The notes under the pieces are model-generated. The model saw only the letters and a program-made list of their open reading frames with translations, had not been told where the DNA came from and did not search any database. A stretch of DNA of 64,000 nt from an uncultured bacterium. Its GTDB lineage: Bacteria > Babelota > Babeliae > Babelales > RVW-14. Of the stretch, positions 8,105 to 58,837 are shown one piece after another; position 1 is the stretch's first letter, and the number at the start of each line of letters is the position of its first letter. The DNA lies in contig CAVXAT010000002.1 in the NCBI GenBank assembly GCA_963759805.1, forward strand, positions 137,479 to 201,478, written 5' to 3'. The translations under genes and the position numbers were made by a program.

Positions 8105-8125
8105 GCCGCGCCATACACATAATTC

Positions 8126-10604: not shown

Positions 10605-10706
10605 AATACAACTAAGTTGGGAGAGTTTAGCAACAAAAACGAAAAAGTAAAATTTAGATTATGTTTTTATATTTTAAATTGATAGCTTTAAAATTACGCT
10701 CTATTT

Positions 10707-21526: not shown

Positions 21527-21960
21527 GATCCACCTACTTTCTTTAAATATCTTTGATTTTTTGACGCAGGAAAACCTTTTACAAAAAGATCTTGCCTGAA
21601 AGGTCCACACACAATCATATCGATATTATCGATCAATTCCTGTGGTAGATCCTCAAATTCTCTTCCCGTGTAAAGAGCCTTGTAAAGTAAAATCTTTTTG
21701 CAAAGCTCTATTAAAAAATCCATTTGATCCGTTGGCTCCCCTCCCAAAAAAACTACACTCTCCGCTAACAAATTACTTTTTATTTTGGACAAAACTTCAT
21801 TCATTGATGTCAGAGTATCATCATTTCGTTCCCACAAAATAGAATTTTGGCATTCTTTGCAGCGAATACTGCAACCGGAAAAATAGATAGCTACAGCAAT
21901 CCTGTCCGGAACATCGATGAAGGACGTACAAGTACGAACTATGTATGCACTCCTGTCCAT
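21502..21960 (-). CDS. nrdG: Anaerobic RNR activating protein (radical SAM)
   Basis: CxxxCxxC cluster GCSIRCKECQN. 152 aa. Immediately upstream of nrdD and overlapping it by 25 nt. Confidence 0.8.
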   Translation of the reverse strand: MDRSAYIVRTCTSFIDVPDRIAVAIYFSGCSIRCKECQNSILWERNDDTLTSMNEVLSKIKSNLLAESVVFLGGEPTDQMDFLIELCKKILLYKALYTGREFEDLPQELIDNIDMIVCGPFRQDLFVKGFPASKNQRYLKKVGGSWICQNCQ

Positions 21961-26298: not shown

Positions 26299-26315
26299 AG
26301 AAAACCCTATTTTAA

Positions 26316-27728
26316 TTAAACTTTGAACAAATCTTTTTGCTCTACTGGTCCATCACTAGATTTTTTATAAATATATATTTTGGCTTTATCAGTTTTGATC
26401 TGCTTTAAAATTTTCCATGACAACTCTACCTCATCTGATCGAACAAAGGCTGACTGATCGCCTTTTATAACATCAGTCAACAAAACTTGATACGCTTCAG
26501 GCGTGTTAGGACCAAATAAACAACTGTGGCAAAAATCCATTGAAACAGGCATAACCTCATTTGCAACCCCGGGAACTTTTACATTCAGTCCAAGATAAAA
26601 ACCTTCGTCCGGATGTATTTTGATTTTTAGAGAATTTGACTGGCTTGGACAAAAATCTAATAAACATTCAACACGCTTAAAGGTTATTTCAACAAACGAC
26701 TCTTGTTTATTAAGATACTTGCCGGTTTTTAAATAAAATGGAACACCGTCCCAACGTTTGTTATTAACTTTTAGTCGCAACGCAACAAATGTATCGGTCT
26801 TTGAATTTGGCTTCACATTTTTTTCTTGTGTATAACCTTCATACTGTCCAAGAACTGCCTTTTCAACCTCAACTCTTTTTAAAACATTTGCCTTTGCATC
26901 TCGGATGAAATCCGCCGTTAATTTTTTGGGAGCCTCCATGGCAATAAGAGCTAAAATCTGTAACATGTGGCTCTGAACCATATCTTTAAGAGCACCATAA
27001 TTATCATAAAAAGCCCCTCGAGTTTCTACTCCCATCTCTTCAGATATGTTAATTGAAACAGACTCGATATGTTGATTATTCCATAATGGCTCAAAAACCC
27101 GATTCGTGAAACGAATTAGGGCAATATTTCCAACAAGTTCTTTGCCGAGATAATGGTCTATTCTATAAATCTGCCGTTCATCAAAAATTTGAGTTATATA
27201 CTTGTTGATATTTTTAGCCGAAGTTAAATCAAAGCCAAACGGCTTTTCATAAACAAGTTTGGCCCACGGGGCACTGCTTGATAAAAAATCAGATGATTTA
27301 ATCTTTTTCTTATCTGGAACTATGCGGTGATTTGCAAAATTTCTTGATATAACTTCAAAATGGTTAGGCATGGTTGCGAAATAAAAAATTCGATTACCAA
27401 CCAGGCTATTTTTCTTTTCAATATCTTTGAGTAAATTGCTAAGTTGCACATACGCCGCGCTGTCATTAAAATCCATCTGAAAGTAAGCTGTCTTTTTCTG
27501 AATATCATTTAATAAATTTGAGTCAATCGCACCAAGAAACGGCCTGCTTTGATCGAAAATTTGTGCAACGGTTGTCTTTGCATTTGAAACCAAAACAATT
27601 GCAAATTTACAAATCTTATCTTCTGCAACAAGCTTACAGATAGCCGGAATCAATTTTCGTTTAGTTAAATCTCCTGTTCCCCCAAGAATTACAAACAAAC
27701 TTTCATCAAAACATGTCACTTTCTTCAT
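26316..27728 (-). CDS. zwf: Glucose-6-phosphate 1-dehydrogenase
   Basis: GGTGDLTKRKLIPA (NADP site), YRIDHYLGKE (active-site motif), EKPFG. Confidence 0.9.
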   Translation of the reverse strand: MKKVTCFDESLFVILGGTGDLTKRKLIPAICKLVAEDKICKFAIVLVSNAKTTVAQIFDQSRPFLGAIDSNLLNDIQKKTAYFQMDFNDSAAYVQLSNLLKDIEKKNSLVGNRIFYFATMPNHFEVISRNFANHRIVPDKKKIKSSDFLSSSAPWAKLVYEKPFGFDLTSAKNINKYITQIFDERQIYRIDHYLGKELVGNIALIRFTNRVFEPLWNNQHIESVSINISEEMGVETRGAFYDNYGALKDMVQSHMLQILALIAMEAPKKLTADFIRDAKANVLKRVEVEKAVLGQYEGYTQEKNVKPNSKTDTFVALRLKVNNKRWDGVPFYLKTGKYLNKQESFVEITFKRVECLLDFCPSQSNSLKIKIHPDEGFYLGLNVKVPGVANEVMPVSMDFCHSCLFGPNTPEAYQVLLTDVIKGDQSAFVRSDEVELSWKILKQIKTDKAKIYIYKKSSDGPVEQKDLFKV

Positions 27729-40901: not shown

Positions 40902-42254
40902 TCATGGCAAATCGTTCCAACTTTTTTTAATTTTTAAAAATACATCATGAAAACAAAAACACTCGGGGCGATCAAGTAATTTTTTACCAATATTTGGTTT
41001 GATAAAATCTAAATTTGCAAATGCATATGCTGAAGGGAAAATAATATTTTTAAAAATACCGTCATTAAATGAATTACAAATTGCGCGCGTAAATCCAATT
41101 GGGCCGGTTATATGTATCGTTTTAAATCCACGAATAGACCGACGAAGCCCCGCATCTGTAGTATTTTCAGGCCGCTCAACCATCTGATATATTATATCAT
41201 CAGTAATATCCTCAAATTGCTTAATAAAATGTATCATGTTGATCAATATAGGATGATTTTGAATCGCTCCAAAATGTCCACTCGCTGCCCAAAAAATTAG
41301 TTGCGATGCATCTTGCGTAGCATAAAAATCATATAAAAAATGCAACTTTTCAAAGGATTCAAAACACAAAATATCTGTATCAACATATAAACCACCGAAT
41401 TTATTTACTATTTCGAACCTGGCTATATCTGAGGCTTTTGCGTAATTTTTTTCCTCAAACAATGCTGTATCAAAGGTCCGCTGATTAAATAGACCGTCAG
41501 CAAAATATTTTGACAATAATTTTTCTGTCCACAAAACATATCTCCACCCCGGATGGCATTTTCTCCAAATTCGCGACCATTGCCTAAAAATTTGGGGGTA
41601 AATGTTTTGCCCAACCCATATTTGATGAATAATTTTTGGAATTTTATGCTTATTTTTATTGAAAGGCATGGCTGCTGATAAATTATTCTTTGCATAGTAA
41701 CAGTTTATTTTCTTAATGATGTCTTGTTGCATTGCTGATGAAATGTAAATTTCAGATATCCTATCACAATATGGAACGGGACCCCAGCTATTCACATAAT
41801 TACTGTTGACAACCATATTTTTTTCAAAATCAAAATCTATATGAATAGGAAAATCGTCAATATCATTTCTATACTTTTCAATATTTAAAACATAAATATC
41901 ATCAATTTTTTTGTTTAAAAAGAAGGTTCGATTTTCTGGTTCAAAAGGACATATTTTATTAATAGTTCCATTTTGGGTCTTTGTTTTTATAACCTTTTCC
42001 TCGTTAGGGTGAATTGTAACAACATTTTTAACATAATAATGCTCATCACATGTCTCGCATTTTTCAGAGCATAAGATTTTGATTTTTTGATCCGAATCTA
42101 TTTGATTTTTCAGTAAAAAACTATTTTGGCACAATTTTTGTATATTTATTGGCCTCAATGCTGAACTTGAAAAAAGGCAAAGACAGAATAATAATAACAA
42201 CATGTTTTTATCCATTGCACTTTTTTTTATCTTCTTTATCTTGCGTAGTAACAT
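40902..42254 (-). CDS. Secreted DXD-motif glycosyltransferase (GT32 / Gly_transf_sug-like), paralog 1
   Basis: IPKIIHQIWVGQ.., ASDIARFEIVNKFGGLYVDTDILC (DXD = DTD). Signal-like leader MLLLLFCLCLFSSSA; likely start at 42203 or 42215. Confidence 0.7.
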   Translation of the reverse strand: MLLRKIKKIKKSAMDKNMLLLLFCLCLFSSSALRPINIQKLCQNSFLLKNQIDSDQKIKILCSEKCETCDEHYYVKNVVTIHPNEEKVIKTKTQNGTINKICPFEPENRTFFLNKKIDDIYVLNIEKYRNDIDDFPIHIDFDFEKNMVVNSNYVNSWGPVPYCDRISEIYISSAMQQDIIKKINCYYAKNNLSAAMPFNKNKHKIPKIIHQIWVGQNIYPQIFRQWSRIWRKCHPGWRYVLWTEKLLSKYFADGLFNQRTFDTALFEEKNYAKASDIARFEIVNKFGGLYVDTDILCFESFEKLHFLYDFYATQDASQLIFWAASGHFGAIQNHPILINMIHFIKQFEDITDDIIYQMVERPENTTDAGLRRSIRGFKTIHITGPIGFTRAICNSFNDGIFKNIIFPSAYAFANLDFIKPNIGKKLLDRPECFCFHDVFLKIKKSWNDLP

Positions 42255-43593
42255 TTGATTGACTAACTCCTACACTGTAGCTATAAATTCCACGAGCACA
42301 AAATGATTCAGGTTGGCTTGCTAAATGAGTATAAGCAGCCTGCACCGGTTCTTCGATATGATTAAATTCCATTTCAACATCGTTCCCATCAAAAAATGTT
42401 GCCGGAAATATTATATCAACATTAGATTTTTGATCGATACTGTTATACACACATAAGGTAAACATCTGATGACCAAGATTTTTTGAGGTCCAGTCATAAA
42501 ATCCACCTGGCGGTGTTTCACAATTTTTTATGTAATCCATACATGCTTTTAGAATTGGATGACCAGATCGACTACCAAAGACTCCATTGTTAATACATCC
42601 CCATGTATCAAAATGGCCAAGGCCACAGTAAAAATCATATGCCTGATGAAGTGGTGCAAAACTTTCAAAGCATCGTATGTCTGGGTCTACGTACAAACCC
42701 CCATATTTATTTAAAATTTCATAGCGAGCAATTTTGGACATCGTGGCATAATCGTACATATCTTCGGCTTGCGTATATACTGCCTTGTTAAACAATCCAT
42801 CAGGAAATTCCCGTTTTATGCGATCTTCATTCCATAGCATTAATGTCCAATCCGAATGTTTTGTTTTCCACTCATCTTGCCATTGTTTAAATAATTTGGG
42901 TTGCTCAAACCCACCAAACCAACAAATATGGATATAATGAGGAATTTTGGGAGTTTTTGATACTCCATTGGAAGCGTTTTGTTTGGCTTTTAGATTATTT
43001 TTTTGATAAATATTTTTTACTTTGCCAAAAAAATCCTTAAAAGAAACATTGACCGGCAAACATTTTACGTAATTTCGATGACCATTTTTAAGCATCTCAT
43101 AGTCGTCATTATCTTTAAGTGTACTATCAAAATCAACATAGTAAGGAAAATCTGTTCGTTGTTTGGTGCCTATTTCAAATATTTTGCATGGGGGATTTAC
43201 TTTAGAAGTTAAGTACAAATATGCCCCTTGATCGGAAACACTCATAGTTTTGATATAATTTGGCGCATCAGTAATCAATAGTTTTTCGCCAGCTTTGACA
43301 ACAAACGTTTTTTCATAATCATCTCGAAGGCAAGGGCAATCGGGGCATTTTTTATAAAATGTAACATTAAGTGTTTTATCATTTGATGTCACATTAGTTA
43401 CACGGGCTGATGGTAAAATCAATTTAGAAATATTAATTGCTGATAACTGAGATATTGTTATCAGAATCAACGTAGCAATATTTGATCGCACAAAATTAAA
43501 AACATCACTCATGCTAAACCCTTTAATCTTTAAAAAATATGTAATTGATATGGAAATGTAGCACAAAAATCGAATTATGGCCAAACAAGTCAA
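42208..43593 (-). CDS. Secreted DXD-motif glycosyltransferase (GT32 / Gly_transf_sug-like), paralog 2
   Basis: IPHYIHICWFGG.., MSKIARYEILNKYGGLYVDPDIRC (DXD = DPD). Likely start MSDVFNFVRSNIATLILITISQLSA at 43512. Confidence 0.7.
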   Translation of the reverse strand: MTCLAIIRFLCYISISITYFLKIKGFSMSDVFNFVRSNIATLILITISQLSAINISKLILPSARVTNVTSNDKTLNVTFYKKCPDCPCLRDDYEKTFVVKAGEKLLITDAPNYIKTMSVSDQGAYLYLTSKVNPPCKIFEIGTKQRTDFPYYVDFDSTLKDNDDYEMLKNGHRNYVKCLPVNVSFKDFFGKVKNIYQKNNLKAKQNASNGVSKTPKIPHYIHICWFGGFEQPKLFKQWQDEWKTKHSDWTLMLWNEDRIKREFPDGLFNKAVYTQAEDMYDYATMSKIARYEILNKYGGLYVDPDIRCFESFAPLHQAYDFYCGLGHFDTWGCINNGVFGSRSGHPILKACMDYIKNCETPPGGFYDWTSKNLGHQMFTLCVYNSIDQKSNVDIIFPATFFDGNDVEMEFNHIEEPVQAAYTHLASQPESFCARGIYSYSVGVSQSNVTTQDKEDKKKCNG

Positions 43594-43727
43594 ATAAAAT
43601 AAACAATTATTAACACTTGTTGCGCTTTAACTTGAATTATCTAGATTTTCATGCAATTATTCTCTATTAATTAGAAAAAAACTTTTGTAATGAAATTTTA
43701 GAATGTAAGCGGCAGGAGTAAATAGTC

Positions 43728-44675
43728 ATGGAAAAAACACTACTGGTGTTTTTGCTCATTTTCGAACAAACATTGGTAGCACAACAAGCAGCAAATCAAC
43801 CTACGGTAATCCAGCAAGGCAATAGCCCCTCACAAGAAGATCACTTACTCACGAACGCAACAAGCAATAAGTCTGATATCGCAATGAACAAAGGGTTAAA
43901 GTTTAGAACTTTGATAGACTTGAACTTGGTCAAAAATTGGGAACAAGATGGTTACCCTGAAGATTCATATTCAGACTTAGATAATACAAATACAAATAAA
44001 GAAAACTTAATTATCAAAAATTTAATAAGCGATGGGAACATAATTTTTGATGTTGGGGCAAATGTTGGAGATTGGACCAATCAGGTGTTATTAAACCACA
44101 AAGATACTTGTATTTTTTCATTTGAACCACTTCATTTTTTAGCTGAATCAATGAAAGAACGCTTTAAGGATAAAAAAGTAAAAATATATGAATCTGCAGT
44201 CTTTTCCGAAGAAAAAACAATTATCTTTAATTATTATGAAAAATGGCCACAAAGCAGTTCAATTTATCCGCAAAATTGGCTTACGACTTGGCTTCAGGAA
44301 CCCAAAAAGATATCGGTCAAGACTGTATGTCTCGATAAATTTTGCACAGACAATAAAATCAATCATATTGATTTTTTAAAAATAGATGTTGAGGGGAGCG
44401 AGCTGGATGTTTTAAAAGGAAGCTCTGATTTGTTAAAAAAACATGCAGTTGATTTTATCCAATTTACATACAACAGGGCGTATTTTGGCGCCCAAATACG
44501 CCTCAAGCAGATGTATGATCTGTTGGCTAGTTTTAAATATTATATTTTCAAAGAGTACGCAGATGGACTGGTTTACATTCCCCAATGGGATGATTCTTTA
44601 GAAAATTATAGACGCTCAAATTACATTGCAATTGCAAATTTCGATCCAAGTAGTACAAGGCAAAGAGACCTATGA
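43728..44675 (+). CDS. FkbM-family SAM-dependent methyltransferase
   Basis: IIFDVGANVGDWT (SAM motif I) and IDFLKIDVEGSELDVLKG (FkbM hallmark). Hydrophobic N-terminus. Confidence 0.75.
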   Translation: MEKTLLVFLLIFEQTLVAQQAANQPTVIQQGNSPSQEDHLLTNATSNKSDIAMNKGLKFRTLIDLNLVKNWEQDGYPEDSYSDLDNTNTNKENLIIKNLISDGNIIFDVGANVGDWTNQVLLNHKDTCIFSFEPLHFLAESMKERFKDKKVKIYESAVFSEEKTIIFNYYEKWPQSSSIYPQNWLTTWLQEPKKISVKTVCLDKFCTDNKINHIDFLKIDVEGSELDVLKGSSDLLKKHAVDFIQFTYNRAYFGAQIRLKQMYDLLASFKYYIFKEYADGLVYIPQWDDSLENYRRSNYIAIANFDPSSTRQRDL

Positions 44676-44812: not shown

Positions 44813-45322
44813 TCATTCTATCTGATATAGATTATTAATCTGAGTGATTTGATTTTGAAGATCAACGATTTGGTTATTCAGTAGCGTGACTTGTAGTTGA
44901 GCGCCTGTGAGCCCTCGCAAATATTGAAGCTCTAGTTGAATCTGATTGATTTGCCCTTTAAGTTGCGCAATTATAGTTGCTTTGGCTGCACGCCTATCTA
45001 TCGTATACGTTCTTCCCTTTTCAACACTACTTTTCCACAGGTATACAGGGGCAACTCCGAGTACCGCTAATGTTACCTGAATGTAGGTACAACCTTTTAG
45101 CGGGACGGATATAGTTTGTTTATTAAGGGGGCATTCGGAAACCGAAACGTACTCTTGGGTCTTACATGTTGAATCTTTATAAAGCTCAATCTGATTTATC
45201 ATAAATCCTTTTGGAATTATGAGTGCTGCAGATGGCTGATTAACAGCACATTTGATTTCTCTTGCTGTTCCCATAAGAGCACTCAGCAATACAACGGTTA
45301 AAGTAACTTTACAAGTCATCAT
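44813..45322 (-). CDS. Hypothetical secreted protein with C-terminal Gln/Leu coiled coil
   Basis: Signal peptide (VVLLSALMGTA). The C-terminal heptad region QLKGQINQIQLELQYL..LLNNQIVDLQNQITQINNL. Confidence 0.4.
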   Translation of the reverse strand: MMTCKVTLTVVLLSALMGTAREIKCAVNQPSAALIIPKGFMINQIELYKDSTCKTQEYVSVSECPLNKQTISVPLKGCTYIQVTLAVLGVAPVYLWKSSVEKGRTYTIDRRAAKATIIAQLKGQINQIQLELQYLRGLTGAQLQVTLLNNQIVDLQNQITQINNLYQIE

Positions 45323-45624
45323 ACGTTCCCTTTTTTTAAAATGAAAATAATCATATTTATTTTCTAATATAAATATGACTGATAAATGACAGTTAGCACA
45401 AGAGTTTAAAGAAAAAACAATACGTTATAGAGTATTTAAGCTGGGACCAAATTTTATTACACAGATATTTTGGCTTTAAAATCGTAATTTTTCCTGTTTA
45501 ATACGCAAGCCCTAGTTTAACCACCATTAAACCGGTTAATATAATAATTAAGTATTATGAATAAATTTTTGTTTTTTACAATTTTTTTAACCATCACGAA
45601 GGAGCACAGATAAAGGAGGAGATC

Positions 45625-47217
45625 ATGACGATACATAAATGTTTGATTGTTGTAATTGTGCTAAGTATCATCGACATCCTCAATACCCCAATTGCCTCTT
45701 CAATGCAACAGAAGCAATCGACTCAGCAACCAGTGCAACAAGACCCATTGCACCAAATGGTTAATGCCGCGGTAGCAGAAGCGTTGAGCGGCCAAGCAAA
45801 TATATTAAAAGAATTTAATAAGAAAATACATGAATGTATCGATCCTCTAAATGAATCTATACATTTAGCACGTTATGCTAATGGAAGTGCCCTGGATGCT
45901 CTGGAGAAAATAAAAGAAGTATCTGCGCATCTAAGCGAAACAAGAGCAGGTGTAGAGCAAGTCAAAAATTTACCGGCAGACTTGAAAAGGCAGGCTCAAG
46001 CTATTAGTGCAAATCTAGAACGTGATTCTGAACGGATAAGCACTGCACTTTTGAATGTTTTAAAAGTAGGCAGAGGCAACCCAGAAGAAAAAACTAAAAC
46101 AAAACTAGCAGAAATAGCTGAAAAAAAACGACTCGGAATTTATGAGCAAGAAGCATCAATTATGGCTGAGGGAAATGTTAAAGTTGAAAAAGCAAGAGGA
46201 GAATGGGTCCGTGAGATGATAGGAGATCCAAAACTCATGATAAAAATTGCAGTTACAATAGTAGTAATTGCTTTGTGTATCTACATACTCAAGTATGGCT
46301 TACCAGTACTTGTAAATTATTTGACAAGACCACGTGTTATAAGTGAAACGTCAAGACCTGGATTGTTTGAATGGTTTAAACCAAAACAAACCGTTAATAT
46401 TGATGACTTAATTTTTGCACCTTCTCTGCAAAATCAACTTTTTGATCTCTTATTGCGTGTACAAACTGCAAAAAAGTATGATGAATTACTCCCCAATGTT
46501 CTTTTTTACGGAGCTCCAGGAACTGGCAAGACAGCTTTTGTTAAAGCATTGGCTTATGAATCAGGACTTGATTATGCATTAACATCCGGTTCAGAATTTG
46601 CAAAAATTACGGACCTTAACCAGGCTAACAACGAATTACGAAAACTCTTAAAGTGGGCAAAAAGAAGCAAAAATGGATTGATTGTTTTTATTGACGAGGC
46701 TGAATCTCTGTTTGCAAATAGAAAGCTGCAAACCACATCCAAGTCAACGCAAGATTTCATTAATACATTCTTGTCACTTGTTTCAGATCAATCACAAAAA
46801 AAAGTTATGTTTATTTTCGCAACTAATCACCCATTTAAACTTGATGATGCAATTACCAATCGCGTTGGAACAAACATTGAGTTTACTTTGCCAGAAGCAC
46901 CCGAACGAGAAAAAATTCTTTCTACATACCTTGTAAAATCTGCGCAAGAAAACGAAGCTGCAATTGTTGATTTGCATCCGGACGTTATAAAATTGCTTCC
47001 AGCTTATGCAGATGAGCTCAAAGGCTTTTCGCCACGAGCTATTAAATTTGTTGCCGAAGAGATGATTATTAATGCACGACGACAAGAATCTATGCAATTG
47101 ACTAATGACATTGCACAAGCAGTAATGGACCAGGCAAAACATAGCTTGCGACAAGCAGTTCTGTGGGAAACGGAACGAAAAGAATGGAGTGGAGATGCAA
47201 ATGTTATTCATTCATAA
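45625..47217 (+). CDS. ATAD3-like membrane-anchored AAA+ ATPase
   Basis: Strong SD (AAAGGAGGAG). N-terminal hydrophobic segment, about 170-aa coiled-coil region, central TM (IKIAVTIVVIALCIYILKYGLPVLV), then RPRVISETSRPG..., VLFYGAPGTGKTAFVKALA..GLDYALTSGSE (Walker A), LIVFIDEAESL (Walker B), FIFATNHPFKLDDAITNR. Domain order and these motifs parallel eukaryotic ATAD3 (..KPSLVRETSR.., LMYGPPGTGKT..GMDYAIMTGGD.., LLFVDEADAF). Confidence 0.75.
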   Translation: MTIHKCLIVVIVLSIIDILNTPIASSMQQKQSTQQPVQQDPLHQMVNAAVAEALSGQANILKEFNKKIHECIDPLNESIHLARYANGSALDALEKIKEVSAHLSETRAGVEQVKNLPADLKRQAQAISANLERDSERISTALLNVLKVGRGNPEEKTKTKLAEIAEKKRLGIYEQEASIMAEGNVKVEKARGEWVREMIGDPKLMIKIAVTIVVIALCIYILKYGLPVLVNYLTRPRVISETSRPGLFEWFKPKQTVNIDDLIFAPSLQNQLFDLLLRVQTAKKYDELLPNVLFYGAPGTGKTAFVKALAYESGLDYALTSGSEFAKITDLNQANNELRKLLKWAKRSKNGLIVFIDEAESLFANRKLQTTSKSTQDFINTFLSLVSDQSQKKVMFIFATNHPFKLDDAITNRVGTNIEFTLPEAPEREKILSTYLVKSAQENEAAIVDLHPDVIKLLPAYADELKGFSPRAIKFVAEEMIINARRQESMQLTNDIAQAVMDQAKHSLRQAVLWETERKEWSGDANVIHS

Positions 47218-48058
47218 TGACAATCTGCTACAAAGTCTGCTTTTCACAAATTTGAGATATCTGTTTTTTTGCATTGCATGTTTTATTGCTTTGAGTAGTT
47301 ATAGGTCTTTATGGGCACAAAGTTCTAGTGAGAATCATGAATTTAACACTCTTGTGGAAAATATTTATGATCTCCTGCTACAAGGACATTCGGCCGACGA
47401 TATTATAGAAATGCTCGATGATGAACAAGAAAATCCCTACAATGTTCAAAAACTCGTAACATACATTCATGATCAATTGAATGGGAACAAATCAAAGGGA
47501 GCTATTACAAAGGTTATTTCGAGTAATAAAGAATCCGAAAAATATTATTCGCGAAAAAATTTTTTAACAAATGTAAAAATTTGTTATTTTGTTTTGAAAA
47601 TTGTTGCAGTTATTGTCGCTATTATAGTTGTTTGCAATTTATTATCGTCATGGTTTCCCGGAATGTTTGGATTCCTGCCAGGATTACCAAAACCTAAAAA
47701 TCAGAGCAATGCTGATGTTGATAAAAAATCTGATACTAGTGAATCTGGTACTAGTGAATCGAAACATAACGAAGAGACTCCATTGGCTTGCAGCGAGTCA
47801 GAATCTCATGAAAAAAGCTCTCAACCAAGCCTGGAAGTCCTTGGTCCCTGTGTTGAAATGGATTCTTTTGATAGCAAAAAATACGCAGATATTATTGCCC
47901 AGCTTGAGTATGCAAAACGTGAAAATTATATACCCGCGAATGGGGTCTTTGATGTTATTGGAGCAGATAAAGAGCAAGTCGATACTCATTCATTATTTTA
48001 CAAAATGCGATTAACGGAACAGATAGCGTTTGTAAAACGTAATGGCTATATAAAATAA
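47189..48058 (+). CDS. Hypothetical membrane protein, translationally coupled to the AAA+ gene
   Basis: Start codons (47189/47195/47201) overlap the AAA+ stop (47215-47217). Signal-like N-terminus, a central TM (VLKIVAVIVAIIVVCNLL), and a Ser/Glu-rich linker. Confidence 0.45.
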   Translation: MEMQMLFIHNDNLLQSLLFTNLRYLFFCIACFIALSSYRSLWAQSSSENHEFNTLVENIYDLLLQGHSADDIIEMLDDEQENPYNVQKLVTYIHDQLNGNKSKGAITKVISSNKESEKYYSRKNFLTNVKICYFVLKIVAVIVAIIVVCNLLSSWFPGMFGFLPGLPKPKNQSNADVDKKSDTSESGTSESKHNEETPLACSESESHEKSSQPSLEVLGPCVEMDSFDSKKYADIIAQLEYAKRENYIPANGVFDVIGADKEQVDTHSLFYKMRLTEQIAFVKRNGYIK

Positions 48059-48165
48059 GCCTGCAGTTGGCTTTACGATAGGGGGTGCCTAGAGAATTTC
48101 TCTTATATGCAAAGCATTCAATAACAAATATATTTTTAAATTTTAAAACGATTAGGATAGGAATT

Positions 48166-48906
48166 ATGAAGAAATTTATGTTGCAATCAATATTATTTGC
48201 CGGAATGATTGTTTTCAACTTGGTAAACGCAGATAACGACCACATTGAATTTATTGAATTTGCCAGGAACGAAGTATCTATTCCAGAAAGATTAGGAAAT
48301 CTTCAGCTTTATAAGGACAATTATGGATTTCATGTTTTTAAAGACGGTGAAACTTATGACATCCCCAATTATTTTTGTGATCCATTGTTACTAAGAATGT
48401 CCAATGAACAACTAGTGAATTTCTTAGGAAGAAACAAACCCAAGATTATTACTCTAACGCCGGAAGAAGTTAGCCAAATAAATCCAAATAACATGGTTGA
48501 AATAACTGACGCCGAAAAGGACAATCTTCTAAGCCTATTATTTGGTAGTGGATACATTGCAATTAATCAGATGGATGATGGCGAATATATCCTTCGCGCT
48601 AAAATAAGACTTCTGGGGGGAGGTTTTTTTGGATCTATGGCTAAAATTTTCACTGTGGGACTTGCCGTAGATCTTGTCGGCTGTATGATACTAAGCCCTG
48701 TAGGATACTACTTTGTATTGGCACCCATAGAATGTATTGCTGTAACAATTTATCAAATAGCAACTGAAGACGATCCTAAATCCACTGCCGCAAAACAACC
48801 AGAACCTAATCCAGCACCCAATCCAGCACCACAGCCTACAGATCAATATGAATTTGTGTATGAACCTGAACCTATACCCTACATTACTTCTGTTCTTGGT
48901 GAGTAG
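48166..48906 (+). CDS. Hypothetical secreted/membrane protein with Pro-rich C-terminus
   Basis: Preferred start MKKFMLQSILFAGMIVFNLVNA (ATG 48166, in frame with the ORF-track 48085). Two C-terminal TM-like segments, then PEPNPAPNPAPQP. Confidence 0.45.
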   Translation: MKKFMLQSILFAGMIVFNLVNADNDHIEFIEFARNEVSIPERLGNLQLYKDNYGFHVFKDGETYDIPNYFCDPLLLRMSNEQLVNFLGRNKPKIITLTPEEVSQINPNNMVEITDAEKDNLLSLLFGSGYIAINQMDDGEYILRAKIRLLGGGFFGSMAKIFTVGLAVDLVGCMILSPVGYYFVLAPIECIAVTIYQIATEDDPKSTAAKQPEPNPAPNPAPQPTDQYEFVYEPEPIPYITSVLGE

Positions 48907-49005
48907 TTTTCTTTTTTGGGAATTTTTTCTACCATGGAAAACTAATCAAGAAATAGCTTGTAAATTAGACAAATCCAACCACTACGTTTTGGGGATAATC
49001 TGAAC

Positions 49006-49980
49006 TTACATTCGAAGTGAAGCAATCAATGCAACAGGAATAGACATTTTCGACCCTTCAGGAAAAAGTTTTTTACGAGCATCACAATATTTTTTTATAA
49101 GTAATGCCCAACACCCCCATCTTCCCAATATCGATAAGCCATGAGCGATTTTAAGAGGGGCGCCTGAGACATCCATAAATTCTTTCCAGATTTTCATGCC
49201 ATCTCCAGAACGGTATGGTGTACATCCATAAAAAAATTGATCTATAAGGGATAAGCTTATGACAAGTGTTGCATTAAGCAAGAATCGTTTTTGTTTGAGT
49301 GACAAAGCTTTTGTATTTAAAATATAAGTAAACGGGCTAGCCCCGTTGATGAAACTCTTTAATGTTATTTCGAATAATCCTTTATTATCGCAATAAGAAC
49401 AGTATCCTGTTATTGTCGAGAGTAAAGTGTACATGAAGGCTGCAGTAGATAGGCCTCCTGCGACATATGCAATACTTAACTCTGTGGCAGATGCAATACT
49501 TAACTCGATATTTTCGTAAGCATCATGATTTTGTTTTATAGATCTTTTTCGCCCAACCCTTGTTATTCCTCTTTTCCATGGGAAAATGTTATAAAAATGC
49601 ATGTTGTCTAATGAAAAGAGTCGGCGTTGAGGCATTGTTTCTGGCGTTGTTGTGCCTATGTAAATTTGAATTGGATTAGGGACATCCAATAAAGCCTTTG
49701 CTGCAACTGCATGTCCCGATTCATGAGTAATGGTTGCTATGGAAGAAATTAAAAACTCCAGGAGCCATATCTGTGCGACATCAATAAGAAATTCTTTGCT
49801 TAGCTCTTTAAATTCATTTTTATAATTTGACGTCTGAGTTTGTACTAGATCAGTATCTGCACATAAAGTTTCGTCAACAAATTCTGCGTCTTTAATTGAA
49901 CTTGTAACATCATCAGGTGCTTGCGCACCGATTGATGCAAATGTTATCAATAATAAACAATATTTTAACCTTTTTAGCAT
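49006..49980 (-). CDS. Putative membrane metalloprotease (M50B-like, HExxH)
   Basis: Signal/TM N-terminus. HESGHAVAAK (HExxH) is embedded in a hydrophobic segment. Several further TM helices. Confidence 0.45.
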   Translation of the reverse strand: MLKRLKYCLLLITFASIGAQAPDDVTSSIKDAEFVDETLCADTDLVQTQTSNYKNEFKELSKEFLIDVAQIWLLEFLISSIATITHESGHAVAAKALLDVPNPIQIYIGTTTPETMPQRRLFSLDNMHFYNIFPWKRGITRVGRKRSIKQNHDAYENIELSIASATELSIAYVAGGLSTAAFMYTLLSTITGYCSYCDNKGLFEITLKSFINGASPFTYILNTKALSLKQKRFLLNATLVISLSLIDQFFYGCTPYRSGDGMKIWKEFMDVSGAPLKIAHGLSILGRWGCWALLIKKYCDARKKLFPEGSKMSIPVALIASLRM

Positions 49981-50066
49981 GCGGTAAATTCCTTAAAAAG
50001 CTACGCTTTATTGAAATTTTCGGAAAAATTGGGAAAGCGGGGGACATTTGATGCAATACCTATTCA

Positions 50067-50795
50067 TTATTGATATGCCGGCTGTGCATATTGATATGCC
50101 GACTGTCCATTCCACCAACTACTAACTCGATTCCAGGCATAATCGAAACCTCGCTTAATCTTATTTCTTGCGCTCTCTATATTTTCACCCATCGACTGAA
50201 AAGCATACTGGAATCGCGCTTTGAGCTCTTCCCTTTCTCTGTAGCTCTGATATTCCTTATAAATATAAGTGCTACAAGCTCCAACTATAAACAAAACAGC
50301 TAAAATAAGCATAAACTTTTCGCTTGATGATAATGATAAAGTTTTATTCGAACCTTCAATATCATTGGAAAAATTCAAATACCTAATTTCATTTGATAAA
50401 CCTGCAAATTTGGCTGCAACTAAAAAATTTTTTACCTCTTCAACGGGAATCTTGTTTAAAATAGAGTATGCAATCAACACTCTTATTAGCTCTTCATCTA
50501 AAACACCAGCACATTTAGCCTCAGCTACAAACTTATGAATGTTTTTTAACAACTCCCTATCATCGCACATGCTAGCCATTTCAATATCCATACCCGCAAC
50601 TTTAGGTTTTTTTCTGGCCCCAGTAACGGTAGTTGATTTTGTGGGATTCGATTGTTGTTCATAAGTGGGCTCCTGGCAATTGCAATTGCAACAACAAAGC
50701 ACTATCAGAATTAACAAAAAAACCATGCGCTCTACATTTTTATTGTTCATAAAATTCCTGCTAAATGTAAATGACATAAATAAACTAATTATCAT
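50067..50795 (-). CDS. Hypothetical membrane protein
   Basis: ORF with an N-terminal hydrophobic/Cys-rich leader (likely start MNNKNVERMVFLL at 50748), one C-terminal TM, and a Tyr/Gln-rich tail. Confidence 0.4.
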   Translation of the reverse strand: MIISLFMSFTFSRNFMNNKNVERMVFLLILIVLCCCNCNCQEPTYEQQSNPTKSTTVTGARKKPKVAGMDIEMASMCDDRELLKNIHKFVAEAKCAGVLDEELIRVLIAYSILNKIPVEEVKNFLVAAKFAGLSNEIRYLNFSNDIEGSNKTLSLSSSEKFMLILAVLFIVGACSTYIYKEYQSYREREELKARFQYAFQSMGENIESARNKIKRGFDYAWNRVSSWWNGQSAYQYAQPAYQ

Positions 50796-56148: not shown

Positions 56149-57504
56149 TTAAGAGATAATTTTATTATCACACACTAATTTTTTATTGGTTTTGCCAACA
56201 TATAAAGCTAACACAATCCAGAGCCCTACCATTCCCAGAGAAATTATAGAACCAAAAAAAAGTAGCGTAGACATGTCAACAAAAATTGCATTTATGGCAG
56301 CCCCAAAAGACTTTGCTGATCGACTGCCAAATACGTCAATCCAGCTTTTCGCCTTAAATTTAATATCGCTACTGGTAGGAATATACATAATCTCAACACA
56401 GGGCTTATTTAATGCGTAACTAAAGCCTTTCAACATAATCATCGCTACAAAAAACGAATATAGATTCGGATTAATCCAAACAAATAAAACTAAAAATCCA
56501 ACAAGAGTGGGAAATAAAATTAGAGAAAAGATCAAGCCAAATCTTCTTATAAGAAAACTCGTACCAATCAATGAAATAACAAGAGCAAGCAAGTTGGCAT
56601 AAAAACCATATGCACCAAGTAACTCCGTCAAAGTCTCAACTGATGGACAAATGCCGTCAGCCAGAAATTTCATCTGATAATCAATAATGGTTCCAATAAT
56701 CTCATAAAGCGTTATCAAGCCCAATATTCCCAATAAATATGGTTTTGATAAAAGCAAGCGCAATCCTTCTATTGGCCCGGTAGATGCGTCTATTTGCTCT
56801 GTAGATGCGCCTGAATCTTTTATGATACATTCAGGCGCAAATTTAGAATAATTTTTTACAAAATAACTTACCAAAAACGGGACAATCATTATGCCACACA
56901 CCACAACAAGAAGCAACGTTGTAATACCTATCACACTCGCCATTCTGGCCAATAGAGGTCCAACAACTGATCCAATTTGAGCGCCACAAATAATTAGCGC
57001 ATACCCTTTTTTAGCAGAATTCGTATCATTTGTACTTGCAACAAACGACCAAAAGAGCGCAACAGCCAAAGACCCAAAACTTTCAATGCTCAAATAAATT
57101 ATCCAACCAAGAATTCGTCCCTTATCTAAAACCGGATTGGCCAAACCAATGGTGGGATGAGCAACAAAATATGCTATACCCAAAAACAGAGAGGCATAAA
57201 ACAGAAAAATAATGTAAAAAAGTCGATGCTTCTGAACCAGATCAACAAGCTTTGAATAAATTAAAATAAGAGGAATCATTATGAGAACTGATGCAATTTT
57301 TGCATATGGTAGATAACATTTTCCAACAATCCGCATGAAAAGTGCGTCTTTAAGAGGTCGCATCAACCAATAAGTTCCAACAATAAAAAGATATGTGCAT
57401 GCAAGCAGACTAAGTCTTCTAATTTCTTTAGCGGTTAACCCAATCCAAAAAAAACGAACCATCCGCTTTAACATTGCAAAATCTCCCGAAGAATATTTAG
57501 TCAA
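56149..57504 (-). CDS. ATP/ADP translocase family nucleotide transporter (Tlc/NTT), paralog B
   Basis: About 12 TM helices. N-terminal KEIRRLSLLACTYLFIVGTYWLMRPLKDALF and C-terminal YALNKPCVEIMYIPTSSDIKFKAKSWIDVFGSRSAKSFGA parallel Rickettsia/Chlamydia Tlc/Npt motifs (..LRSIKD.., ..KNMAYIPLD..VKGQAAVEVIGGRLGKSGGA). Confidence 0.8.
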   Translation of the reverse strand: MTKYSSGDFAMLKRMVRFFWIGLTAKEIRRLSLLACTYLFIVGTYWLMRPLKDALFMRIVGKCYLPYAKIASVLIMIPLILIYSKLVDLVQKHRLFYIIFLFYASLFLGIAYFVAHPTIGLANPVLDKGRILGWIIYLSIESFGSLAVALFWSFVASTNDTNSAKKGYALIICGAQIGSVVGPLLARMASVIGITTLLLVVVCGIMIVPFLVSYFVKNYSKFAPECIIKDSGASTEQIDASTGPIEGLRLLLSKPYLLGILGLITLYEIIGTIIDYQMKFLADGICPSVETLTELLGAYGFYANLLALVISLIGTSFLIRRFGLIFSLILFPTLVGFLVLFVWINPNLYSFFVAMIMLKGFSYALNKPCVEIMYIPTSSDIKFKAKSWIDVFGSRSAKSFGAAINAIFVDMSTLLFFGSIISLGMVGLWIVLALYVGKTNKKLVCDNKIIS

Positions 57505-58837
57505 TCAACTGTTTATTCTCAATGACTTTTGTAAAGTTTTTTCCAACCAGACCCGCAACAAATATCCAACCAGCTATGCAACACAAAGCAAAGCCACCTA
57601 CCAAGCTGATGTAGCTTCCCATAAGCCCATTTACTAACGATCCTGAAGCCTTTGATAATCGCATACCAAACATATCAATCCAAGCTTTAGATTTATATTT
57701 AATACTCTTTATTGTAGGAATATATAAACTTTCCTTAGCCGGCTGGTTAAATGCATAGTTTAACGATTTTCCAATTAACATCAAATATGTAACCGTATGT
57801 AAAGAGGGGTGCAAAAGATATGCAACCAAGGCTGCCCCAATTAAAACAGGATAAACAACCAAACAAAATGGTATTCCATATTTACGCTGAAAATATGACG
57901 TTCCAAATAACGCAAAGACACATGCAATTACTTGTACAGCCAAAGCATAATTAAATAAAAATTTATTTACAGCTCCCGGATCTATGTAGGAAGCCTTGAC
58001 CATTAAAGAGAGCTGAAAACCAATAACCGTCGTAATAAATTCTTGGAAAAAAATTATTGCAAAAATTCCTGCAACATACGGTCTTGTTAGCAGTATTTTT
58101 AGACCTTCATTGAATCCAACATTCTCCTTTGCCATCTGTTCAGACTCTATTTTAACAACCTCCTCATAGCCCTGAGGATTATTTTTAATAATAAAGTGCT
58201 TTAAAACATAAACAATAACTGCCAACATTAAAAACATTGACACTGAGATTGCCGTAATAATCGGTACACTCTGCGCATATTTTGTGGGATCGTTTGAAAG
58301 AAAATTTCCAAGCAAAATAAACAATACACCACCAAGTTGCGTACCAAATGCTATCAAGCCATAACCCTTTTGGGCCGATTCCGGCGTTGTTACGTCATTG
58401 ATAAACGACCAATAAAGCGAAATCATCAATGTGATAAAGCTTTCAACAAATAAATAGTAAATCCACCCAATCCAACGCGATGGAGAAACGGTTGTATTTG
58501 TAAGTCCAATTACAGGATCACACAAAAAATATACAAGAATGAAACCAAGAACTACATAAAACCCAACCACAAAATAAATAAGTTTTTCTTTTTCTAACAA
58601 ATCCACAAGTTTTGAATAAAAAAGAACAACCGGGAAAAGCAGTGCTAATGAGATAAGTTTGGCATATGGAAGATAAAGAGGCCCTACAATATTAATAAAA
58701 ATGCTTTCTTTAAGTGTCTTAAGCGGCCAGAAAGCTCCAATCAAAAAGAAAAAACCCAAAGCAAGCAGTAAGAACTTCGAAAGCTCTTTGCCCTGCAGGT
58801 CACCCCAGAAAAATTTGACTACCCTTAAAATTTTCAT
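57497..58837 (-). CDS. ATP/ADP translocase family nucleotide transporter (Tlc/NTT), paralog A
   Basis: KELSKFLLLALGFFFLIGAFWPLKTLKESIF.., ESFITLMISLYWSFINDVTTPESAQKGYGLIAFGTQLG, YAFNQPAKESLYIPTIKSIKYKSKAWIDMFGMRLSKASGS. 8-nt overlap with paralog B. Confidence 0.8.
   Translation of the reverse strand: MKILRVVKFFWGDLQGKELSKFLLLALGFFFLIGAFWPLKTLKESIFINIVGPLYLPYAKLISLALLFPVVLFYSKLVDLLEKEKLIYFVVGFYVVLGFILVYFLCDPVIGLTNTTVSPSRWIGWIYYLFVESFITLMISLYWSFINDVTTPESAQKGYGLIAFGTQLGGVLFILLGNFLSNDPTKYAQSVPIITAISVSMFLMLAVIVYVLKHFIIKNNPQGYEEVVKIESEQMAKENVGFNEGLKILLTRPYVAGIFAIIFFQEFITTVIGFQLSLMVKASYIDPGAVNKFLFNYALAVQVIACVFALFGTSYFQRKYGIPFCLVVYPVLIGAALVAYLLHPSLHTVTYLMLIGKSLNYAFNQPAKESLYIPTIKSIKYKSKAWIDMFGMRLSKASGSLVNGLMGSYISLVGGFALCCIAGWIFVAGLVGKNFTKVIENKQLID

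What the first reader, a model, noticed from the sequence alone, without database searches (positions are those of the whole stretch)
40902..44675. Tandem secreted DXD glycosyltransferases (toxin/effector-type fold family) with a divergent FkbM methyltransferase
Two paralogous proteins of about 450 aa carry the PKIIHQIWVG / IPHYIHICWFGG box and the (A/M)S(D/K)IAR(F/Y)EI(V/L)NK(F/Y)GGLYVD(T/P)D box. These define the DXD sugar-binding glycosyltransferase region found in GT32 enzymes. The same region occurs in the catalytic cores of large clostridial glucosylating toxins and several intracellular-pathogen effectors. Both proteins have hydrophobic signal-like leaders and long, Cys-containing N-terminal domains of unknown function, which are conserved between the two (..CP.C....Y.K..VV..GE..). 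An FkbM-type methyltransferase is transcribed divergently next door. This could be a surface-glycan (methylated sugar) module. In an intracellular organism it could instead be exported enzymes that glycosylate host targets.
Basis: partly seen in the sequence, partly recalled or inferred. Interest (0 to 1): 0.55.

Follow-up and report, generated by a model that had tools for sequence, protein, structure and literature searches.

The report
Exported GT32 glycosyltransferase pair plus methyltransferase
An intracellular, energy-parasitic bacterium (probably Dependentiae) carries two adjacent sugar-transferring enzymes and a methyltransferase that all have export signals, so they probably work outside the bacterial cytoplasm on host-supplied sugar donors; what they glycosylate is unknown.

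Summary
Two paralogous ORFs (GT1 40902-42254, GT2 42208-43593, minus strand) are GT32-type DXD glycosyltransferases, and a divergently transcribed FkbM methyltransferase lies at 43728-44675. All three begin with Sec-type leaders.

New findings:
- Each GT has four parts: a leader, a ~100-aa N-terminal beta-sandwich, a helical linker with a DFD motif, and the GT-A core. The beta-sandwich has no Pfam or PDB sequence match and only about 10 genuine representatives among 1.84 billion proteins.
- GT1 has the full donor-site motif set. GT2 has conserved replacements of the sugar-binding Asp (to Lys), the TGP lid and the C-terminal His (to Arg). The GT2-GT1 tandem persists in relatives only 30-48% identical.
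- The closest relatives form a large, mostly leader- or lipobox-bearing GT32 family. It is often in tandem arrays and is found almost only in Dependentiae, Chlamydiae and Rickettsiales.
- No LPS or capsule cluster is nearby.
- Fold searches cannot separate toxin-type from Och1-type GT32. By sequence profile, Legionella SetA is the best solved relative.

Best reading: enzymes exported by Sec, then released by type II secretion or retained in the envelope, that use host nucleotide sugars and SAM. The acceptor, whether the bacterium's own envelope or a host molecule, is unresolved. This is a new variant of a known kind, of moderate interest.

The parts
40902..42254 (-). GT1: leader-bearing GT32 glycosyltransferase with the full catalytic motif set. 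This is the ORF as listed; the likely start is 42215 or 42203.
   Evidence: PF04488, PF05704 and PF12919 all score above cut-off. Orthologs are 75-82% identical and 433 aa long.
42159..42215 (-). GT1 Sec-type leader (MDKNMLLLLFCLCLFSSSA)
   Evidence: The hydrophobic core is 11 residues, too short for a membrane span, and is followed by small residues. No SignalP was available, so this rests on a heuristic.
41841..42158 (-). GT1 N-terminal beta-sandwich domain (about 106 aa, with an invariant Asn and K-C-x-x-C)
   Evidence: The AF2 model has seven strands with pLDDT above 90. A profile search found only 12 hits among 1.84e9 representatives. There is no Pfam or PDB match.
41646..41840 (-). GT1 helical linker with the DFD motif, shared with the short leader-bearing GT32 homologs
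40905..41645 (-). GT1 GT-A catalytic core: IPKIIHQIW, SD..R, Y-x-DTD (DXD at 41373-41381), TGP lid and C-terminal His
   Evidence: Residue roles are taken from SetA (PMC13037854) and Och1 (PMC12312940).
42208..43512 (-). GT2: upstream paralog (434 aa from the ATG at 43512). It has the same architecture as GT1 but an altered donor site. It is translationally coupled to GT1: its stop is at 42208-42210 and the GT1 start is at 42203 or 42215.
43438..43512 (-). GT2 Sec-type leader (MSDVFNFVRSNIATLILITISQLSA)
   Evidence: Orthologs end in ASA, MHA or LHA directly before INISKL.
43138..43437 (-). GT2 N-terminal beta-sandwich domain
42211..42951 (-). GT2 GT-A core. W, R, Y and DPD (42679-42687) are kept. 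SD is replaced by SK, TGP by LGH, and the C-terminal His by Arg (FCARGIYSY).
   Evidence: The same substitutions occur in L080, L001, L083 and L084.
43728..44675 (+). FkbM-family SAM methyltransferase, transcribed divergently. It has a leader (43728-43784), a Q/N/S-rich linker and a methyltransferase domain (about 44049-44525).
43513..43727 (.). Divergent intergenic region between GT2 and FkbM, which presumably holds both promoters
   Evidence: The promoter scan gave no more sites than shuffled sequence.

Best explanation
This is a conserved three-gene module of an obligate intracellular, nucleotide-parasitic bacterium, most likely Dependentiae/Babeliales. GT2 and GT1 are co-transcribed and translationally coupled. 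Each is made with a cleavable Sec leader, followed by a family-specific beta-sandwich, a short helical linker and a GT32-type retaining GT-A domain.

GT1 is the catalytic enzyme. Its Trp stacks on the nucleotide base, its Asp and Arg bind the sugar, and its DXD binds the metal.

GT2 is a conserved paralog that has lost the sugar-binding Asp, the TGP lid and the C-terminal His. It most likely acts as a non-catalytic partner, or as an enzyme with altered chemistry, alongside GT1.

The leader-bearing FkbM enzyme would O-methylate the transferred sugar.

GT-A/DXD enzymes need nucleotide sugars, and FkbM needs SAM. Neither exists in a free-living bacterium's periplasm. The module is therefore inferred to work outside the bacterial cytoplasm, at the envelope or after type II secretion, on donors supplied by the host cell. 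It would build or decorate a short methylated glycan on an acceptor recognised by the beta-sandwich.

Shown: domain content, motifs, paralogy, leaders, synteny and phyletic distribution. Inferred: export, use of host donors, the GT1/GT2 partnership, methylation of the product, and the acceptor. I lean towards a glycan on the bacterium's own envelope or on secreted glycoconjugates rather than a single-hit protein toxin, but only weakly.
For: Family and fold:
- The AF2 model has pLDDT 88 and pTM 0.89.
- PDB fold hits to YeGT, SetA, PaTox and Och1 are at E about 1e-9.
- The profile search gives SetA 4.6e-21 and Och1 2.7e-13.

Export:
- Leaders have short hydrophobic cores.
- A-x-A-like sites are conserved immediately before the first strand of the N-domain in all subfamily members.
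- 86 of 121 family ORFs in related loci are leader- or lipobox-positive by a strict heuristic. These include clear lipoboxes such as VFAVAC-SSKKKEK in Chlamydiales.
- Distant cytoplasmic GT32s start directly at IPKIIHQIW.
- Cytoplasmic housekeeping proteins in the window (CysRS, UvrC, NrdD, AtpA, GlmU, SbcD) score negative with the same heuristic.
[quoted passage not shown] In Chromulinavorax, 44% of CDS carry signal peptides (PMC6561590).

Host dependence: the window holds two TLC nucleotide translocases and a nucleoside transporter.

Glycan-building context:
- FkbM-GT2-GT1 is conserved in the 75% relative.
- FkbM genes lie within 6 kb of GT32 relatives in five further loci.
- In L084 the pair is co-operonic with a leader-bearing GT2-family enzyme and lies near a leader-bearing GT4.
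- Tandem arrays reach six copies.

GT2 degeneration:
- The substitutions are conserved down to 44-48% identity.
- The residue roles come from SetA Asp118/Arg121/Asp134/Asp136 (PMC13037854) and Och1 D171/R174/H463 (PMC12312940).

Precedent for a bacterial GT working outside the bacterium on host UDP-glucose: chlamydial GlgA (PMC4829429).
Against: - No signal-peptide predictor or experiment was available. Leaders are so common in this genome (about 40%) that their presence carries limited information.
- A Sec leader only reaches the periplasm. Release by type II secretion or outer-membrane vesicles is assumed.
- It is untested whether nucleotide sugars of about 570-600 Da reach the periplasm through porins.
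- FkbM adjacency is seen in only about 6 of 80 loci. In the window, GlmU and SbcD are merely neighbours.
- The best solved sequence relative is a host-protein glucosyltransferase (SetA), which fits the rival reading at least as well.
- Neither the donor sugar nor the acceptor can be read from the sequence.
- The GT1/GT2 complex was not modelled.
Confidence: 0.4

Rival explanations
1. Host-directed effectors of the SetA, PaTox or clostridial-toxin kind. After Sec export and type II secretion or vesicle release, GT1 (with GT2 as a second enzyme or an adaptor) mono-glycosylates a host protein such as a small GTPase, or a host lipid, using host UDP-sugar. The beta-sandwich would serve as the targeting or substrate-binding domain. 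FkbM would be an unrelated neighbour or a second effector.
For: - SetA is clearly the best solved relative by profile: 78.6 bits against 53 for Och1.
- GT1 passes the PF12919 TcdA_TcdB threshold.
- PF04488 domains are recognised toxin modules (PMC3482391), and the PaTox glycosyltransferase domain is classed in GT32 (PMC11152714).
- The closest relatives are nearly all from Dependentiae, Chlamydiae and Rickettsiales.
- The family is expanded in tandem arrays, as effector families often are.
- In Dependentiae, eukaryote-like ankyrin proteins carry Sec leaders (PMC6561590), and WD40 proteins in this window do too. A Sec leader is therefore compatible with host targeting.
Against: - Known toxin GTs act alone. 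Here the GTs are clustered with other leader-bearing GT families and methyltransferases.
- Chlamydiales homologs are predicted lipoproteins, which are retained on the bacterium.
- The PF12919 match covers only 37 of 382 profile positions.
- Giant-virus glycan-building GT32-like proteins are structurally closer than any toxin.
- No membrane-localisation or PI-binding domain is present.
- The N-domain is about as conserved as the core (70-76% against 75-79% overall), which does not suggest an arms race.
Confidence: 0.3
2. Conventional envelope-glycan enzymes. The N-terminal hydrophobic segment is an uncleaved membrane anchor, and the catalytic domain faces the bacterial cytoplasm. There it uses bacterial nucleotide sugars, for example UDP-GlcNAc made by the nearby GlmU, to build a glycolipid or polysaccharide that is then methylated and flipped outward.
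For: - Both GTs hit PF05704 Caps_synth.
- FkbM/RfbT-type methyltransferases typically act in O-antigen and glycan pathways, and some FkbM homologs hit PF05575 RfbT.
- GlmU is adjacent in the relative L080.
- GT2- and GT4-family genes lie next to the pair in L084.
Against: - The hydrophobic cores are only 11-13 residues. They are followed by A-x-A-like sites, and the N-termini are basic, which predicts export of the C-terminal part.
- The lipobox variants can only be extracytoplasmic.
- The soluble FkbM also has a leader.
- No flippase, Wzx/Wzy, ABC exporter, lipid-carrier or sugar-activation genes are found in 64 kb.
- GlmU is a housekeeping equivalog needed for peptidoglycan.
- Babeliales are reported to lack most LPS genes (PMC4776705).
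- Each mature protein contains 12-14 cysteines.
Confidence: 0.15
3. Golgi-type enzymes that enter the host secretory pathway. The leader works as a eukaryotic signal peptide or anchor once the protein reaches the host, or the bacterium's compartment is continuous with the ER. The enzymes then remodel host lumenal glycans or glycolipids.
For: - GT32 is typically a Golgi family of type II membrane proteins, such as Och1 (PMC12312940).
- The invariant Asn of the N-domain sits in an N-x-T sequon in most members.
- The proteins are cysteine-rich.
- Automated JGI names for homologs are Och1-like or IPC-mannosyltransferase-like.
Against: - There is no evidence of eukaryotic origin; all close homologs are bacterial.
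- The sequon may simply be a structural Asn turn.
- No mechanism is known that would deliver a bacterial periplasmic protein into the ER lumen.
- Lipobox variants point to bacterial lipoprotein processing.
Confidence: 0.07

Closest known systems
Legionella pneumophila SetA glucosyltransferase domain (PDB 8x4j/8x4k/8x4m)
   Same: - It is the best solved relative by family profile (E 4.6e-21) and among the top fold hits.
- It shares the IHxIW Trp, the SD..R motif, Y-x-DXD and the TGP-containing lid.
- It comes from an amoeba-associated intracellular bacterium.
- It uses host UDP-glucose outside the bacterium (PMC13037854).
   Different: - SetA has no Sec leader and is translocated by the Dot/Icm type IV system.
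- It carries a C-terminal PI3P-binding domain instead of an N-terminal beta-sandwich.
- It acts alone on Rab1.
- Identity is only about 22% over about 220 residues.
CAZy GT32 small toxin glycosyltransferases PaTox-G and YeGT (PDB 4mix, 8ovs/8ovt)
   Same: - They share the GT32-type GT-A fold and are the top Foldseek hits (E about 1e-9, TM about 0.5 on the target).
- They share the DXD motif and lid.
   Different: - They are tyrosine-GlcNAc transferases delivered as parts of large toxins or by injection machinery.
- They have no leader, no N-terminal beta-sandwich and no methyltransferase partner.
- Sequence identity is 16-20%.
Fungal Och1 alpha-1,6-mannosyltransferase (GT32, PDB 9n3s)
   Same: - It belongs to the same Pfam and CAZy family (profile E 2.7e-13).
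- The conserved donor residues D171, R174, DxD and H463 correspond to the GT1 motifs.
- It has an N-terminal hydrophobic anchor and works in an extracytoplasmic (lumenal) compartment on a glycan acceptor.
   Different: - It is a eukaryotic type II Golgi protein that uses GDP-mannose imported by a transporter.
- It has no beta-sandwich.
- It is not paired with a degenerate paralog.
Large clostridial glucosylating toxins (TcdA/TcdB, GT44; PF12919)
   Same: The SD..R...GG.Y.D.D segment is shared. GT1 scores 31 bits on PF12919, and profile E-values are about 1e-9.
   Different: - Only about 40 residues align.
- The N-terminal four-helix bundle and the extra helical subdomains of the roughly 540-aa toxin domain are absent.
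- GT2 does not match PF12919.
FkbM/RfbT-family sugar O-methyltransferases
   Same: The window protein matches PF05050 and TIGR01444 above cut-off. Homologs partly match PF05575 RfbT. Its genomic pairing with glycosyltransferases is typical for the family.
   Different: It carries an N-terminal leader and an approximately 75-aa Q/N/S-rich linker that are absent from most homologs, whose coverage of the query is about 70%.
Secreted chlamydial glycogen synthase GlgA (functional analogy only)
   Same: It is a bacterial nucleotide-sugar glycosyltransferase that works outside the bacterium on host UDP-glucose (PMC4829429).
   Different: It has an unrelated fold and family (GT-B), is secreted by type III secretion, and makes glycogen.
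Giant-virus GT32-like glycosyltransferases (Harvfovirus, Hyperionvirus, Satyrvirus, Marseillevirus; BFVD models)
   Same: They are the closest structures found overall (E 1e-13 to 1e-16, TM up to 0.67 on the target). Their hosts are also amoebae and other protists.
   Different: - They are viral, cytoplasmic enzymes without leaders or the beta-sandwich.
- They are predicted models only.
- Their functions are mostly untested.

Membership tests
GT32 / Pfam PF04488 (Gly_transf_sug) | Profile match above the curated threshold | tested here: met
   GT1 scores 43.9 bits and GT2 43.2 bits against a cut-off of 23.
GT32 / Pfam PF04488 (Gly_transf_sug) | GT-A fold with a DXD metal-binding motif | tested here: met
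   AF2 models and fold hits. The motif is DTD at 41373-41381 in GT1 and DPD at 42679-42687 in GT2.
GT32 / Pfam PF04488 (Gly_transf_sug) | Conserved donor-site residues: the IHxxW Trp, the Asp and Arg of SD..R, the Tyr before DXD, the TGP lid and the C-terminal His (SetA W36/D118/R121/Y132; Och1 D171/R174/H463) | tested here: inconclusive
   GT1 has all of them. GT2 keeps W, R, Y and DXD but has Lys for the Asp, LGH for TGP and Arg for the His, and these changes are conserved in its orthologs. The feature is therefore met for GT1 and not met for GT2.
GT32 / Pfam PF04488 (Gly_transf_sug) | Retaining transfer from a nucleotide sugar | not testable with these tools
   This requires an enzyme assay and product analysis.
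Large clostridial toxin glycosyltransferase domain (GT44, PF12919) | Full-length match to the roughly 380-position catalytic domain, including the N-terminal helical bundle | tested here: not met
   GT1 matches only profile positions 159-195, and GT2 has no match. Foldseek TM scores on the target are about 0.27.
Translocated host-modifying glycosyltransferase effectors (SetA, Lgt or LtpM type) | Delivery into the host cell | not testable with these tools
   Only a Sec-type leader is seen. Type II secretion genes are core in the phylum according to PMC4776705, and the window holds a T2SSE fragment.
Translocated host-modifying glycosyltransferase effectors (SetA, Lgt or LtpM type) | Glycosylation of a host protein | not testable with these tools
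Sec-exported or lipoprotein-anchored proteins | N-terminal signal peptide with an n-region, a short h-region and a small-residue cleavage site, or a lipobox | tested here: inconclusive
   Hydrophobicity and motif heuristics are positive, are conserved across the family and are negative for cytoplasmic controls. No trained predictor or experiment was available.
FkbM methyltransferase family (PF05050 / TIGR01444) | Profile match above the curated thresholds | tested here: met
   67.6 bits against 22.7; 97 bits against 37.7.
LPS or capsule biosynthesis cluster | Neighbouring sugar-activation, flippase/polymerase or export genes | tested here: not met
   None were found in the 64-kb window. GlmU is a housekeeping equivalog. 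One distant relative (L084) does have GT2- and GT4-family genes nearby.

The most novel reading that the evidence does not exclude
Obligate intracellular bacteria of protists (Dependentiae, environmental Chlamydiae, some Rickettsiales) share a large, so far undescribed family of Sec-exported or lipoprotein-anchored GT32 glycosyltransferases. Together with leader-bearing GT2- and GT4-family enzymes and FkbM methyltransferases, these would form an extracytoplasmic, 'Golgi-like' glycosylation pathway fuelled by host nucleotide sugars and SAM. The window's pair would be a specialised branch with a new beta-sandwich acceptor-binding domain and a catalytically degenerate partner subunit.
Probability: 0.25. 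Interest if true: 0.75.

Novelty: new variant of a known kind. Interest (0 to 1): 0.5.

Why it matters
Nucleotide-sugar glycosyltransferases are normally confined to compartments that hold their donors: the bacterial cytoplasm or the eukaryotic Golgi and ER. A widespread family of exported GT-A enzymes in bacteria that live inside eukaryotic cells would mean these parasites spend the host's sugar-nucleotide pool outside their own cytoplasm. They could use it either to coat themselves or to rewrite host molecules.

That would add a new class of host-interaction factors for Dependentiae and environmental Chlamydiae, groups whose effector biology is almost unknown. The catalytic-plus-degenerate GT32 pair and the orphan beta-sandwich are concrete, testable handles. 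If the enzymes instead turn out to be ordinary envelope-glycan enzymes, the finding reduces to a routine annotation with a new accessory domain.

Tried and rejected
- A word-indexed protein search with the GT2 N-terminal 190 aa returned nothing, not even the protein itself. I treat this as a tool limitation, not as evidence. The exhaustive profile search replaced it.
- The first genome-contig scan, using single-protein patterns, found no relative. The alignment-based scan worked.
The organism is therefore inferred only from homolog names and gene content.
- The first AF2 run, with 5 N-domain sequences, left the N-domain unmodelled. It was resolved by adding the representatives.
- The models could not be cut, so whole-model fold searches reported only GT-domain matches. 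The beta-sandwich fold class remains unassigned.
- Pfam and PDB profile searches with the N-domain found only noise: Rtf2 and 3cnl at E above 0.003. P0108 is a eukaryotic C2H2 zinc-finger protein that matches the CxxC stretch, and I rejected it.
- NCBIfam has no model for either GT.
- The promoter and terminator scan of the locus gave no more sites than shuffled sequence.
- GlmU and 'Metallophos', which lie next to the module in the relative, were considered as pathway members and rejected. They are housekeeping GlmU and SbcD.
- The idea that CxxC is a catalytic or metal site was dropped, because L011 and L058 lack it.

Full report
**1. Observation**

- GT1 is 40902-42254(-).
- GT2 is 42208-43593(-).
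- FkbM is 43728-44675(+).

Both GTs pass the Pfam thresholds for PF04488 (the DXD sugar-binding region) and PF05704. GT1 also passes PF12919 (TcdA_TcdB), but over only 37 residues. The two GTs are paralogs: 32% identity, E 1e-41, with the alignment running through the N-terminal region. FkbM passes PF05050 and TIGR01444. No further copy exists in the window.

The start codons need correction.
- GT1 orthologs are called at 433 aa. The ORF upstream of M14 overlaps the end of GT2, so the start is M14 (42215) or M18 (42203).
- GT2 starts at the ATG at 43512, behind AAAGGG.
- The GT2 stop (42208-42210) is 4 nt upstream of, or overlaps, the GT1 start.
- The same tight spacing is seen in L080, L083 and L084, so the pair is an operon.

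**2. Organism and surroundings**

The window has about 36% G+C. Its gene content includes:
- two TLC nucleotide translocases and a nucleoside transporter;
- four tandem leader-bearing WD40 genes, BamD and a T2SSE fragment;
- peptidoglycan enzymes, ATP synthase, GlmU and SbcD.

Nearly all named homologs of the GTs come from Candidatus Dependentiae/Babeliales. About 19 of 52 large ORFs have leader-like N-termini and 13 more are membrane proteins. Cytoplasmic housekeeping enzymes score negative with the same heuristic. This matches the 44% signal-peptide content reported for the cultured Dependentiae Chromulinavorax (PMC6561590). I therefore treat the source as a Babeliales-like obligate intracellular bacterium. 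This is an inference, because no marker-gene taxonomy was obtained.

No LPS, capsule, flippase or sugar-activation genes occur in the 64 kb. Babeliales are reported to lack most LPS genes but to have a type II secretion system in their core genome (PMC4776705).

**3. Anatomy of the proteins**

Alignments and a confident AlphaFold model (pLDDT 88, pTM 0.89) give four parts:
- a leader with an 11-13-residue hydrophobic core;
- a seven-stranded beta-sandwich of about 100 aa that begins with (I/L)N(I/L)xKL, has an invariant Asn (usually N-x-T) and, in most members, K-C-x-x-C;
- a helical linker with a DFD motif, shared with shorter homologs;
- the GT-A core.

In every subfamily member the sandwich begins directly after an A-x-A-like site (ASA, MHA, LHA, AYA, AHA and similar). 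This is what signal peptidase I cleavage would predict.

The sandwich has no Pfam or PDB sequence relative. A profile search of 1.84 billion representatives found only 12 hits. One was spurious, and every full-length hit among the rest is fused to a GT32 core of 400-450 aa.

**4. GT1 versus GT2**

GT1 carries the complete donor-site set: IHQIW, SD..R, Y-x-DTD, TGP and a C-terminal His. One search aligns these with SetA. In SetA, W36, D118, R121, Y132 and D134/D136 bind UDP-glucose and Mg2+ (PMC13037854). In Och1, the equivalent D171, R174, DxD and H463 line the donor site (PMC12312940).

GT2 keeps W, R, Y and DPD. It has Lys in place of the sugar-binding Asp, LGH in place of TGP, and Arg in place of the His. 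The same replacements occur in its orthologs in L080/L001 (77-82% identity), L083 (48%) and L084 (about 44%). The GT2 lineage is therefore old and under selection, not decaying.

I infer either a non-catalytic partner of GT1 or an enzyme with changed chemistry. Two acidic or metal-ligand positions becoming basic would also fit a metal-independent variant. The GT2-type/GT1-type tandem is present in every contig that is long enough.

**5. The wider family**

Of the 99 homologs, at least 51 have leaders followed by xDFDxSM and the core. The most distant ones start directly at IPKIIHQIW.

A scan of one genome per species found 266 relatives. The best 80 are almost all from Dependentiae/Babeliales, Chlamydiae (Simkaniaceae, Rhabdochlamydiaceae, Parachlamydiaceae) and Rickettsiales, or from unclassified MAGs.

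In these loci, 86 of 121 family ORFs are leader- or lipobox-positive by a strict rule. Twenty-seven of 80 loci have two to six tandem copies. The Chlamydiales triplets carry textbook lipoboxes.

One caveat applies: the scan pattern (PKIIH[QH]IW) was derived from this clade. The result shows where the closest relatives live, not that GT32 in general is restricted to these lineages. I found no paper describing this family.

**6. Toxin or Och1?**

Foldseek gives YeGT, SetA, PaTox and Och1 at the same level (E about 1e-9) and the large clostridial toxins at about 1e-5. Only three GT32 structures exist, two of them toxins (PMC12312940), so the fold cannot decide.

By family profile, SetA is clearly best (78.6 bits), ahead of Och1 (53), YeGT, YGT, PaTox and TcdA/B. 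Predicted giant-virus GT32-like proteins are structurally closer than any PDB entry. The catalytic domain is thus a generic member of the GT32/toxin clan that circulates among amoeba-associated organisms.

**7. The methyltransferase and context**

FkbM-GT2-GT1 is conserved in the 75%-identical relative. There FkbM abuts SbcD/GlmU, whereas the window has six extra leader or membrane ORFans in between.

FkbM genes lie within 6 kb of family members in five other loci. Some have leaders and some do not.

In L084 the pair is co-operonic with a GT2-family enzyme and lies near a GT4 enzyme. Both of those carry leaders as well.

This clustering of several transferases with a sugar-type methyltransferase looks more like glycan assembly than a single-hit toxin.

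**8. Mechanism**

GT-A/DXD enzymes use nucleotide sugars and FkbM uses SAM. If the leaders are functional, the enzymes sit where a free-living bacterium has neither. In an intracellular parasite the host supplies both. Chlamydial GlgA, secreted and working on host UDP-glucose, is a precedent (PMC4829429).

I therefore propose the following:
- export by Sec, followed by envelope retention or type II release;
- use of host donors;
- GT1 as the catalyst, GT2 as the partner, and FkbM as the O-methylase;
- the beta-sandwich as the acceptor-binding module.

The acceptor is open. Context and the lipoprotein homologs favour the bacterium's own envelope or secreted glycoconjugates (0.40). The affinity to SetA and the phyletic pattern keep host-protein glycosylation close behind (0.30). 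A conventional cytoplasm-facing role (0.15) is disfavoured by the short hydrophobic cores, the lipoboxes, the leader on the soluble FkbM and the absence of export genes.

**9. Verdict**

The catalytic domains are members of a known family. Four features are new:
- the orphan beta-sandwich;
- the conserved catalytic-plus-degenerate pair;
- the export leaders on all three enzymes;
- membership in a large leader-bearing clade confined to intracellular bacteria.

I rate this a new variant of a known kind, with interest 0.5.

Noticed in passing
window 8695-12672 (-): Four tandem WD40-repeat genes, each with an N-terminal leader. They are eukaryote-like repeat proteins that are probably exported and directed at the host.
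   Followed up: partly
window 45625-47217 (+): An AAA+ ATPase with an unusual layout: an N-terminal leader, a long Q-rich and probably coiled-coil half, a central transmembrane segment and then the AAA domain. It has no equivalog in NCBIfam.
   Followed up: no
window 44813-50795: Six leader-bearing or membrane ORFan genes lie between FkbM and SbcD/GlmU. They are absent from the 75%-identical relative L080, where FkbM abuts SbcD. This is a variable island next to the module.
   Followed up: partly
window 56149-58837 (-) and 60891-62156 (-): Two adjacent TLC-type nucleotide translocases and a concentrative nucleoside transporter, which are hallmarks of an energy or nucleotide parasite.
   Followed up: no
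window 18-728 (+) and 7313-8104 (+): A type II/IV secretion ATPase fragment (T2SSE) lies at the window edge, and a BamD-like lipoprotein is nearby. The cell is therefore diderm and has a possible route for releasing Sec-exported proteins.
   Followed up: no
GT1 residue N37 (M14 numbering; window about 42105-42107) and the equivalent position in all N-domain homologs: The only invariant residue of the beta-sandwich is an Asn. In most members it sits in an N-x-T sequon. It may be a structural turn or a glycosylation site; this is unexplained.
   Followed up: no
L084 1146-2366 (-) and 9359-10321 (+): In a distant relative, a GT4-family and a GT2-family glycosyltransferase next to the GT32 pair also carry N-terminal leaders, as do two unknown 345-360-aa proteins. 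Export of several glycosyltransferase families may be general in Dependentiae.
   Followed up: partly
L017, L022, L032, L040, L044, L049, L053, L065 (about 5700-9200 in each): Chlamydiales genomes carry a conserved triplet of GT32 homologs with lipoprotein signal sequences (for example VFAVAC-SSKKKEK, FAAGC-SEQ). L013 has six tandem copies.
   Followed up: partly
L080 2698-4395 (+): The close relative encodes a eukaryote-type phospholipase B (PF01735) a few genes from the module. No counterpart was annotated in the window.
   Followed up: no
window 19610-21610 (-), 25228-27728 (-): An anaerobic ribonucleotide reductase (NrdD) and the oxidative pentose-phosphate pair G6PD/6PGD are retained in an otherwise reduced gene set.
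   Followed up: no
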